Made by a program: the position numbers and the translations under genes. From Spizellomyces punctatus DAOM BR117 (taxonomy: Eukaryota): a stretch of DNA of 64,000 nt. Shown in pieces: positions 26,692-27,501 of the stretch (positions are counted from its first letter, which is position 1; the number at the start of each line of letters is the position of its first letter). The notes beneath the pieces were generated by a model, which made no database searches, was not told the origin of the DNA, and saw only the letters and a program-made list of their open reading frames with translations. The stretch lies in NCBI GenBank assembly GCA_000182565.2, contig KQ257452.1; one strand, 5' to 3'.

Positions 26692-26779
26692 CTACTTGAT
26701 CATAAGTAGTGTAGAGGTGACAGAAACTGGCACTAGCTACTACACCAGGGAATAAACCAGCGACAACTGGTTCGGAAAA
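26692..26779 (-). ncRNA. Putative Fanzor omegaRNA, copy B: 73-nt scaffold 26779-26707 plus about 15-nt flank-derived guide CUUAUGAUCAAGUAG
   Basis: UUUUCCGAACCAGUUGUCGCUGGUUUAUUCCCUGGUGUAGUAGCUAGUGCCAGUUUCUGUCACCUCUACACUA; overlaps the right TIR; close to the recalled SpuFz1 scaffold. Confidence 0.8.
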
Positions 26780-27501
26780 GCTAAGCTACTACTAGGCAAT
26801 TATACACGCAATACGTAACGGTTGGTTTTAACCGGATAATTGCCCACCACCACACACGGTCCCTACTAGGCCTTGATCTGGAACTCTTGATGGCATTGAA
26901 GCCAGACTCTTGCATCCAGGAGCGAATCGACTGGGCAGCGTCACAAGCCAGAGGATGTTCAGTGACAAGGCTTGGAGACTACAAAAAAATGCATGTCAGC
27001 GACAGAATAATATGAAAAGAGATGATGCCATTGGTACATACCAACCAAGCTCAACTAATGTGGCAGCATAATAGTAGGTTTTGTTATCGGATCCGATTGG
27101 TTGCCGCTGGTTCTGATCACGGTTGCTGTCGGGCGGTCGAGGTCCTCGGCACCACCACATCTGCATGCTCATGGTTGACCGAGTCGCAATGAGGTTGCAA
27201 TGTGGGTCGCTATGAGGTTGCAATGGGTCGCGATGAGCGTTGGGCAGATGGTTTGAGAGTCGAGGATGGGTAAAGAGGAAAGAGGGAAGAGAGGGCAGGT
27301 CCCCTTTTATAGACCTTGAGTGTGGCAAAATGGGGTCCAGCTGAAAAGAAAAAAAAACATTACATTAGCATGCCACACCGCAGTTTGGAGAACATTAGCA
27401 GGACGCTTTCAGCGATGGGGGTTCTGATTATGCAATATAATTAACCGGATTGATCCGGATGATAATGGATACTAGTGCCATTTACTGTCAGCTCCACACT
27501 A
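26707..27501 (-). mobile_element. Non-autonomous Spu-1-like Fanzor 'ghost' element, 795 bp including terminal TA
   Basis: 30-bp TIRs with 26/30 match: TAGTGTAGAGGTGACAGAAACTGGCACTAG (26707-26736) and the reverse complement of 27472-27501; TA at both ends; no nuclease or transposase ORF. Confidence 0.8.
26828..27172 (-). CDS. Candidate micro-gene MSMQMWWCRGPRPPD... with a 63-nt intron (26979-27041)
   Basis: CTATAAAA at 27312-27305; GTATGT donor, GCTGAC branch point, T-rich TAG acceptor; motif shared with copy A. Confidence 0.45.

What the first reader, a model, noticed from the sequence alone, without database searches (positions are those of the whole stretch)
26692..27501. Fanzor 'ghost' element: TIR-bounded, nuclease-free, encoding an omegaRNA with a flank-derived guide
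Seen: 30-bp TIRs (26/30 match) each ending in TA, no long ORF, and a minus-strand right end that folds as AACCAG-UUGUCG-CUGGUU plus UGGUGUAG...CUACACUA. Knowledge, recalled and not aligned here: the SpuFz1 scaffold reads approximately UUUUCCGAGCCGGUUGUCGCGCGGUUCAAUCCCUGGUGCGGGUGCUAGUGCCAAUACCCACCGGCUCCGCACUA, overlaps the right TIR and takes about 15 nt of flank as guide, with a CATA TAM. This copy differs from it by compensatory stem changes. Inference: it supplies guide CUUAUGAUCAAGUAG in trans to a Fanzor encoded elsewhere, targeting the empty insertion site. The left junction reads AATA, one mismatch from CATA. Ghost loci as a class are already described; this variant scaffold may not be.
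Basis: partly seen in the sequence, partly recalled or inferred. Interest (0 to 1): 0.85.

Follow-up and report, generated by a model that had tools for sequence, protein, structure and literature searches.

The report
A known Fanzor ghost guide-RNA element
This is a real, nuclease-free transposon remnant in the chytrid fungus Spizellomyces punctatus that carries a guide RNA for the Fanzor nuclease, but this class of "ghost" elements was already catalogued in this same genome in 2023 and 2026, so it is ordinary.

Summary
Window 26707-27501 is bounded by 30-nt inverted repeats (26 of 30 matching) that end in TA and has no long ORF. Its minus-strand end folds into a 74/75-nt two-stem RNA followed by 15 nt of flank. 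The window is Spizellomyces punctatus DAOM BR117 or an identical strain: a flanking protein is 441/442 identical to SPPG_02177. Saito et al. 2023 reported 134 "ghost Spu-1" loci in that genome, and a 2026 paper collated 126 unique ghost scaffolds of 74-76 nt. The scaffold matches every nucleotide named in the published structure text (U5, C6, C7, U16, G17, G20) and the ghost-type 3-nt bulge in stem 2. A second, diverged copy at 9813-10557 keeps stem 1 through three compensatory pairs. Contigs from public runs show a high-copy family, including an 88-nt contig at 26694-26781. So the "Fanzor ghost" reading is supported, but the "undescribed variant scaffold" is not. The left junction reads AATA, not CATA, so published TAM data predict no cleavage of this copy's own empty site. 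The interior looks like a small spliced transcription unit: TATA box, ATG-free leader, 63-nt GT-AG intron. I did not find this in the main texts I read. Verdict: already known, low interest.

The parts
27472..27501 (-). Left-end (5') 30-nt inverted repeat of element A
   Evidence: inverted pair I1; 26 of 30 match to 26707-26736, read
27500..27503 (-). TAM position of the would-be empty site; reads AATA on the minus strand instead of the published CATA
   Evidence: sequence; TAM and CA motif from PMC10432273 passages
27305..27312 (-). TATA box (CTATAAAA on the minus strand) at the upstream edge of the family-conserved region. Copy B has TATATAAA at the matching place.
   Evidence: sequence; depth falls from 186 to 14.9 across 27297/27298 in X1. 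The promoter role is inferred.
27173..27304 (-). 132-nt leader without any ATG. It holds a 23-nt tandem duplication (27183-27225) whose copy number varies in the family.
   Evidence: ATG count 0; D1; joints 27177>27227 and 27182>27227
27044..27172 (-). 43-codon ORF from the first ATG to the 5' splice site. It is kept in frame in copy B and in two annotated paralogues. Probably not a real protein gene.
26979..27041 (-). 63-nt GT-AG intron-like segment (GTATGT...TTTTTTTGTAG)
   Evidence: sequence; joint 26978>27042 in X10 (depth 99.1) and X12 (8.88), and related joints in X11 and X12. Depth inside is 0/0/2 in X10/X11/X12 and 40-92 in X1. The same junction is used in gene models P0121 and P0122.
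26782..26978 (-). Second exon, i.e. the leader up to the scaffold. The reading frame is not conserved among copies.
   Evidence: the paralogue proteins align in frames -1, -2 and -3
26707..26781 (-). omegaRNA scaffold (75 nt, or 74 nt from C26780). It overlaps the right-end inverted repeat 26707-26736.
   Evidence: 97.4 bits, self-match to the model; nucleotides named; X11 contig 26694-26781
26692..26706 (-). Flank-derived guide (CUUAUGAUCAAGUAG)
   Evidence: The X11 contig runs 13 nt into it, and X12 record 25 (another copy) carries 18 nt of its own flank.
9813..10557 (-). Copy B: a diverged, degenerate relative with a 66-nt scaffold (9878..9813), an extra linker hairpin, a short stem 2 and a decayed left end
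   Evidence: D13, D16; 85.5 bits

Best explanation
Window 26707-27501 is one copy of the published 'ghost Spu-1' family of Spizellomyces punctatus. These are non-autonomous relatives of the Fanzor1 (SpuFz1) transposon that have inverted repeats but no nuclease gene. The proposed mechanism follows; steps marked as inferred were not shown here. The element is transcribed on the minus strand from its own TATA-type promoter near 27305-27312 (inferred). The roughly 0.5-kb transcript loses a 63-nt intron at 27041..26979 (supported by joined contigs and by paralogue gene models). Its last 75 nt (26781..26707) form the two-stem omegaRNA scaffold, and the transcript ends about 13-15 nt into the flank, which supplies the guide (weakly supported by contig ends). 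The mature RNA of about 88 nt is loaded in trans by SpuFz1 encoded at other loci (from the literature, not tested here). The guide matches the right-hand flank, so the complex would recognise the site left when the element is absent. That site would read AATA rather than CATA at the TAM, so at this locus cleavage is predicted to fail (inferred from the published TAM mutagenesis).
For: Organism: ORF 31650-33071(-) is 441 of 442 aligned residues identical to SPPG_02177 of S. punctatus DAOM BR117, apart from a 22-aa in-frame intron. The next best hit is 64% identical.

Published description, read as passages of PMC10432273: 134 ghost loci in that genome, 30-nt IRs, a conserved region of about 550 nt, a 75-nt scaffold plus a 14-15-nt guide, two stems and a linker, and ghost stem 2 with a 3-nt bulge. 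Ghost omegaRNAs from 4 loci work with SpuFz1.

Features met here:
- IRs match at 26 of 30 positions.
- With C26780 as nucleotide 1, the scaffold has U5, C6, C7, U16, G17 and G20 as named.
- Stem 2 has a 3-nt bulge.
- The scaffold length of 74/75 nt lies within the 74-76 nt reported for 126 unique ghost scaffolds.

Structure conservation: against copy B, stem 1 (8 predicted pairs) has 3 pairs changed on both sides, 2 changed on one side, 3 unchanged and 0 broken. In the family, 26759 A>G and 26768 T>C are the two sides of one stem-1 pair.

Family: in run X1 the flanks have depth 2.2 and 5.84 against 355 at 26688-26748, with 195 records laid. Two X1 contigs bridge both junctions with 0 differences.

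RNA: X11 (RNA by guess) has a whole 88-nt contig at 26694-26781. X12 (on record as RNA) has a 262-nt contig of another copy that ends 18 nt past the repeat end. Neither run covers the flanks.

Intron: see the parts list.
Against: - The CA motif reported upstream of the 5' IR of ghost loci is not present; the flank reads AA.
- I could not align the scaffold or IRs to the published canonical or ghost sequences, or confirm that this locus is in the published list.
- No Fanzor gene was seen here. No genome is held, and the window has no ORF over 524 aa. Only 10 of its 53 ORFs of 150 aa or more were scanned with Pfam, none with a TnpB-type hit.
- The kinds of runs X1, X10 and X11 are guesses, all four runs are contigs, and contigs cannot prove RNA ends or strand.
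- The X11 88-nt contig differs from the window at 2 scaffold positions, so it may be a graph path that mixes copies.
- If X10 is really DNA, the 'spliced' form could instead be genomic copies that lack the 63 nt.
Confidence: 0.9

Rival explanations
1. A decayed copy with no present function. It is a ghost element by descent and may still be transcribed, but it cannot direct cleavage of its own empty site and serves nothing.
For: The TAM position reads AATA, and the paper says that mutating any TAM base abolished cleavage. The two IRs differ at 4 of 30 positions. Its stem-1 pair 26759/26768 is the minority form in the family.
Against: The scaffold fold is intact (z = -3.36) and all published contact nucleotides are kept. 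The unique junction with the flank is present in a run that lacks the flanking DNA (X11). A guide could act at other sites that carry CATA; I could not search the genome for them.
Confidence: 0.3
2. The element is a small protein-coding gene. Its paralogues are annotated as uncharacterized proteins SPPG_09412 and SPPG_08830, and the RNA hairpins are incidental.
For: The first ATG after the TATA box opens a 43-codon frame that runs exactly to the 5' splice site. Copy B keeps this frame, with conserved WCRGPRPPD and YYY and indels of 3 and 24 nt. The leaders have no upstream ATG. Two annotated proteins share it at 91% identity.
Against: After the intron the three copies use different frames (-1, -2, -3), and B stops one codon after its putative splice. 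Of 12 family variants in the ORF, 7 change the residue, including R>W, Q>P and Y>C. The search returned 2 hits among only 4 candidates, both from the same species. Nothing matched in the PDB. The best-conserved block is conserved at third positions too, which points to a DNA or RNA element.
Confidence: 0.06
3. An ordinary Tc1/mariner-type miniature element with TA duplications whose terminal hairpins only resemble an omegaRNA.
For: [quoted passage not shown] No transposase or nuclease lies inside.
Against: Stem 1 is kept by compensatory changes while the loop UUGUCG and the 5' CUUUUCC are invariant between two copies that are only 69% alike overall. The published work showed that ghost scaffolds of this genome guide SpuFz1.
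Confidence: 0.03

Closest known systems
Ghost Spu-1 loci of Spizellomyces punctatus DAOM BR117 (Saito et al. 2023, PMC10432273; ghost scaffolds gst1-126 in PMC13434818)
   Same: Same genome. The shared features are 30-nt IRs, no Fz ORF, a family-conserved region of about 600 nt, a 74/75-nt two-stem scaffold over the right-end IR, a 3-nt bulge in stem 2, a flank-derived guide and high copy number.
   Different: The flank upstream of the 5' IR reads AA, not the reported CA, which gives AATA at the TAM place. The stem-1 pair 26759/26768 is A-U where most copies have G-C. Whether the locus is one of the 134 listed could not be checked because the supplements are closed.
Full-length SPu-1 / SpuFz1 element (Bao and Jurka 2013, PMC3627910; Saito 2023)
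   Same: Terminal inverted repeats ending in TA, with the omegaRNA at the right end on the same strand as the element's transcription.
   Different: About 795 bp instead of about 2.1 kb, and no 633-aa Fanzor ORF. The interior shows no protein similarity to any PDB chain, a set that includes SpuFz1 entry 8GKH. The paper says ghost IRs differ from Fz IRs at seven positions; this was not testable here.
Bacterial IS200/IS605 TnpB omegaRNA and its nuclease-free derivatives
   Same: The guide RNA is encoded at the transposon's right end and reads into the flank, and the TAM lies at the left flank, so the rejoined empty site is the target. This logic is discussed in PMC10432273.
   Different: Eukaryotic host, double-stranded inverted repeats with TA ends, and no pseudoknot in the RNA. 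Here there is also a TATA box and a spliceosomal-type intron upstream of the scaffold.

Membership tests
Ghost Spu-1 element (Saito 2023) | Lies in the S. punctatus genome | tested here: met
   441/442 identity to SPPG_02177 of DAOM BR117 outside a 22-aa intron. X1 contigs match both junctions with 0 differences.
Ghost Spu-1 element (Saito 2023) | Two roughly 30-nt inverted repeats at the ends | tested here: met
   26 of 30 positions match.
Ghost Spu-1 element (Saito 2023) | IR sequence equals the published ghost IR logo, which differs from the Fz IR at 7 positions | not testable with these tools
   The logo is in Extended Data Fig. 3a and the supplements. Figures are not held and supplements are closed.
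Ghost Spu-1 element (Saito 2023) | No Fanzor ORF between the repeats | tested here: met
   The largest ORF is 110 aa, and there are no PDB matches, SpuFz1 included.
Ghost Spu-1 element (Saito 2023) | Conserved interior of about 550 nt | tested here: met
   Family depth is high from 26688 to 27297, about 600 nt, and drops beyond.
Ghost Spu-1 element (Saito 2023) | CA directly upstream of the 5' IR | tested here: not met
   The minus strand reads GCATCAA|TAGTG, so AA stands at the place and a CA lies one base further out. This fits a point change or a 1-nt insertion in one copy and does not by itself argue against descent.
Ghost Spu-1 element (Saito 2023) | [quoted passage not shown] | tested here: met
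   Fold. Numbering from C26780 gives all six nucleotides named.
Ghost Spu-1 element (Saito 2023) | Ghost-type stem 2 with a 3-nt bulge | tested here: met
   The MFE structure has a 3-nt bulge at scaffold positions 45-47; description.
Ghost Spu-1 element (Saito 2023) | Scaffold length of 74-76 nt | tested here: met
   74 nt from C26780, or 75 nt from G26781. Copy B, at 66 nt, does not meet this.
Fanzor1 omegaRNA (functional) | Expressed as an RNA of about 88-90 nt ending 14-15 nt into the flank | tested here: inconclusive
   An 88-nt contig at 26694-26781 in X11 (RNA by guess, 2 differences), and X12 RNA contigs of another copy ending 18 nt past the IR. Contigs cannot prove ends or strand.
Fanzor1 omegaRNA (functional) | A Fanzor1 nuclease is encoded in the same genome | not testable with these tools
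   No genome is held. The literature reports 42 Fz loci, 19 of them full length, in DAOM BR117.
Fanzor1 omegaRNA (functional) | CATA TAM next to the guide's target in the empty site | tested here: not met
   The reconstructed junction gives AATA; the TAM requirement is.
Fanzor1 omegaRNA (functional) | Binds SpuFz1 and directs cleavage | not testable with these tools
   This needs a bench assay.

The most novel reading that the evidence does not exclude
Ghost Spu-1 elements are self-contained, spliced, polymerase-II-type guide-RNA genes rather than passive deletion remnants. Each has a TATA box at the edge of the conserved region, an ATG-free leader, a short conserved first-exon frame, a 63-nt GT-AG intron and then the omegaRNA at the transcript's 3' end. 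Removing the intron brings together a 6-bp hairpin whose loop (UUGUCU) resembles that of scaffold stem-loop 1 (UUGUCG). Splicing could therefore be coupled to omegaRNA maturation or loading. In that case the fungus or the transposon maintains over 100 independent expression cassettes that broaden the Fanzor guide repertoire.
Probability: 0.4. Interest if true: 0.45.

Novelty: already known. Interest (0 to 1): 0.15.

Why it matters
As a class and in this very genome, the element is published: it has been catalogued, folded and shown to guide SpuFz1. Confirming one more copy therefore adds little. Two small points may be useful to people who work on Fanzor biology. First, this copy's would-be empty site carries AATA, not CATA. 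Such copies offer natural tests of whether ghost guides act on their own sites at all. Second, the ghost interior looks like a small spliced transcription unit that feeds the omegaRNA. That bears on how eukaryotic omegaRNAs are made, a question the main texts I read leave open.

Tried and rejected
- Whole-genome search for other copies and for Fanzor genes: no genome is held for this window.
- Rfam scan of 26000-28200 at E up to 10: only two chance lncRNA-fragment hits outside the element.
- Metagenome scan with a degenerate scaffold pattern: 5 loci were returned. All 5 lie inside ordinary genes (subtilase, citrate transporter, UvrD helicase, VTT-domain protein, metallo-beta-lactamase fold) and none has a complementary stem 1, so they are chance matches.
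- Covariance model from A and B over the window and those 5 loci, filters off: 9 matches at E up to 10. Only A and B are strong. The next is the pattern-selected L003 at 22.4 bits, then the left-end repeat itself at 13.3 bits. So there is no third copy in the window.
- Is the interior a translated relic of SpuFz1? Three ORF pieces were searched against all PDB chains. Two gave 0 hits and one gave a single chance hit at E = 0.27 to a phycobilisome linker. One search was my own frame error, corrected.
- Search for the canonical scaffold sequence in paper main texts: 0 occurrences of the loop-plus-stem word in three papers.
- Parts of the stretch without cover in X10, X11 and X12 (the flanks and 27298-27419) are not used as evidence of absence. 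The left-proximal 200 nt also has low depth in X1, so low cover there may reflect divergence among copies rather than lack of transcription.
- Formal pair counting on the MAFFT alignment was not run, because MAFFT misplaces copy B's short stem 2. The pairs were read from the two MFE structures instead.

Full report
**What is there**

Window 26707-27501 is bounded by inverted repeats.
- One search finds arms 26701-26736 and 27472-27507 (36 nt, 83% complementary).
- The 30-nt cores match at 26 of 30 positions, and both ends read TA.
- The 30-mer is unique in the window at up to 3 mismatches, with no match in 100 shuffles.
- The largest ORF inside is 110 aa.

On the minus strand, 26780..26707 folds into four parts: a 7-nt single-stranded CUUUUCC, an 8-bp stem-loop with loop UUGUCG, a linker, and a long stem 2 that uses the repeat. 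The MFE is -21.9 kcal/mol with z = -3.36. A first fold with extra flank on both sides was not significant (z = -1.23).

**A second copy**

Repeat search over the whole window (families D13 and D16) led to a relative at 9813-10557.
- A degenerate scaffold pattern matches exactly these two places, and 0 of 100 shuffles gave two matches.
- A covariance model built from the two copies finds no third copy in the window.
- The two elements are only 69% alike over the whole alignment.
- They nevertheless keep CUUUUCC, UUGUCGC, UGGUGUA and ACACUA.
- Of the 8 predicted pairs of stem 1, 3 differ on both sides, 2 on one side and 3 not at all, and none is broken.
- Copy B has an extra linker hairpin, a short stem 2 (66-nt scaffold) and a decayed left end.

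**Whose genome**

No genome is held for the window. ORF 31650-33071(-) is 441 of 442 aligned residues identical to SPPG_02177 of Spizellomyces punctatus DAOM BR117, apart from a 22-residue in-frame intron. The next best relative is 64% identical. The window is therefore that strain or an identical one.

**What is published**

I read passages only; figures and supplements were not available.
- Saito et al. 2023 (PMC10432273) report the following for DAOM BR117:
  - 42 Fz loci and 134 'ghost Spu-1' loci;
  - ghost loci have a conserved region of about 550 nt flanked by 30-nt repeats, with CA upstream of the 5' repeat;
  - the omegaRNA is a 75-nt scaffold plus a 14-15-nt guide, seen as an 88-90-nt RNA at Fz loci;
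  - the scaffold has two stems and a linker;
  - ghost stem 2 has a 3-nt bulge where the canonical RNA has an 8-nt loop;
  - ghost scaffolds from four loci work with SpuFz1 in human cells;
  - the TAM is CATA, and mutating any TAM base abolished cleavage.
- The structure text of that paper names U5, C6, C7, U16, G17 and G20.
- PMC13434818 collated 126 unique ghost scaffolds of 74-76 nt from this genome and tested representatives.
- Bao and Jurka 2013 (PMC3627910) described SPu-1 as about 2.1 kb, with 33-bp repeats, putative TA duplications and a 633-aa ORF.

**Fit to the published description**

Numbering from C26780, the scaffold has exactly the six named nucleotides. Its stem 2 has a 3-nt bulge, and its length is 74/75 nt. 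The one feature not met is the CA motif, where AA stands in its place.

**Public runs**

All four runs laid are contigs. Only X12 is on record as RNA; the kinds of the other three are guesses.
- **X1:** it holds both junctions with 0 differences (26229-26733 and 27371-28000). Its flanks have depth 2.2 and 5.84 against 355 at 26688-26748, with 195 records laid. This shows a high-copy family.
- **Family conservation:** depth stays high from 26688 to 27297 and falls beyond.
- **Stem-1 variant:** at 26759 and 26768, the two sides of one stem-1 pair, much of the family has G and C where this copy has A and T (depth 97.8 of 204.9 and 129.8 of 157.6 in X1).
- **X11:** it has a whole 88-nt contig at 26694-26781 with those two differences and shows no cover of the flanks.
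- **X12:** it has a 262-nt contig of another copy that ends 18 nt beyond the repeat end.

Two runs stopping 13-18 nt past the repeat, where X1 runs on, is a weak hint of the RNA's 3' end.

**The interior**

- A TATA box (CTATAAAA, 27312..27305) sits on the minus strand at the edge of the conserved region. Copy B has TATATAAA at the matching place.
- An ATG-free leader follows: 132 nt in A, against 88 nt (TATA box included) in B.
- The first ATG (27172) opens 43 codons that end at GTATGT.
- The 63 nt at 27041..26979 read GTATGT...TTTTTTTGTAG.
- X10, X11 and X12 have depth 0, 0 and 2 inside that segment and carry the joined form, with joint depths 99.1, 23.9 and 8.88 plus 3.49. X1 keeps the segment at depth 40-92 and shows no such joint.
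- Two annotated paralogues, SPPG_09412 and SPPG_08830, use the same junction.

A real protein is unlikely for four reasons:
- Downstream of the intron the three copies read in different frames.
- Copy B stops one codon after its putative splice.
- 7 of 12 family variants in the frame change the residue.
- Nothing similar is in the PDB.

The words 'intron', 'TATA' and 'Pol II' do not occur in the main text of Saito 2023. A search for Fanzor together with ghost terms found only the two papers above. I cannot exclude that figures or supplements show these features.

**Verdict**

This is a real Fanzor ghost element whose omegaRNA carries a flank-derived guide. It belongs to a family already catalogued in this genome, so it is already known and of low interest. 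The suggestion that it targets its own empty site is weakened by the AATA junction.

Noticed in passing
window 9813-10557: A second, diverged ghost-like copy on the minus strand. Its scaffold is 66 nt, with an extra linker hairpin, a 9-bp stem 2 and a decayed left repeat. Its guide would be the 15 nt at 9812..9798. It lies outside the 74-76-nt range of the published ghost scaffold set.
   Followed up: partly
window 1-1557 and 37513-39069; 39009-39738 and 39839-40568: Two pairs of 100% identical segments, 1557 bp at a distance of 37.5 kb and 730 bp in near-tandem. These are either recent segmental duplications or an assembly artefact.
   Followed up: no
window 46587-48047: A cluster of 85-93% identical repeat units with a period of about 590 bp and nested 74-130-nt sub-repeats. 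Their nature is unknown.
   Followed up: no
window 27127-27154 and 10153-10180: The best-conserved internal block between copies A and B, identical at 27 of 28 positions. It contains the near-palindrome CGAGGTCCTCG. It is conserved at third codon positions of the putative frame, so it is more likely a DNA or RNA signal than coding sequence.
   Followed up: partly
window 27183-27225: A 23-nt tandem duplication in the leader. Family contigs skip 44-49 nt here (joints 27177>27227 and 27182>27227), so its copy number varies among ghost copies.
   Followed up: no
window 27042|26978 junction (minus strand): Removing the 63-nt segment brings together a perfect 6-bp hairpin whose 6-nt loop resembles the loop of scaffold stem-loop 1. 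Its meaning is unknown.
   Followed up: no
window 31650-33071 (-): The PhoD-like phosphatase gene (SPPG_02177) has a 66-nt in-frame intron that a stop-to-stop ORF reads through.
   Followed up: yes
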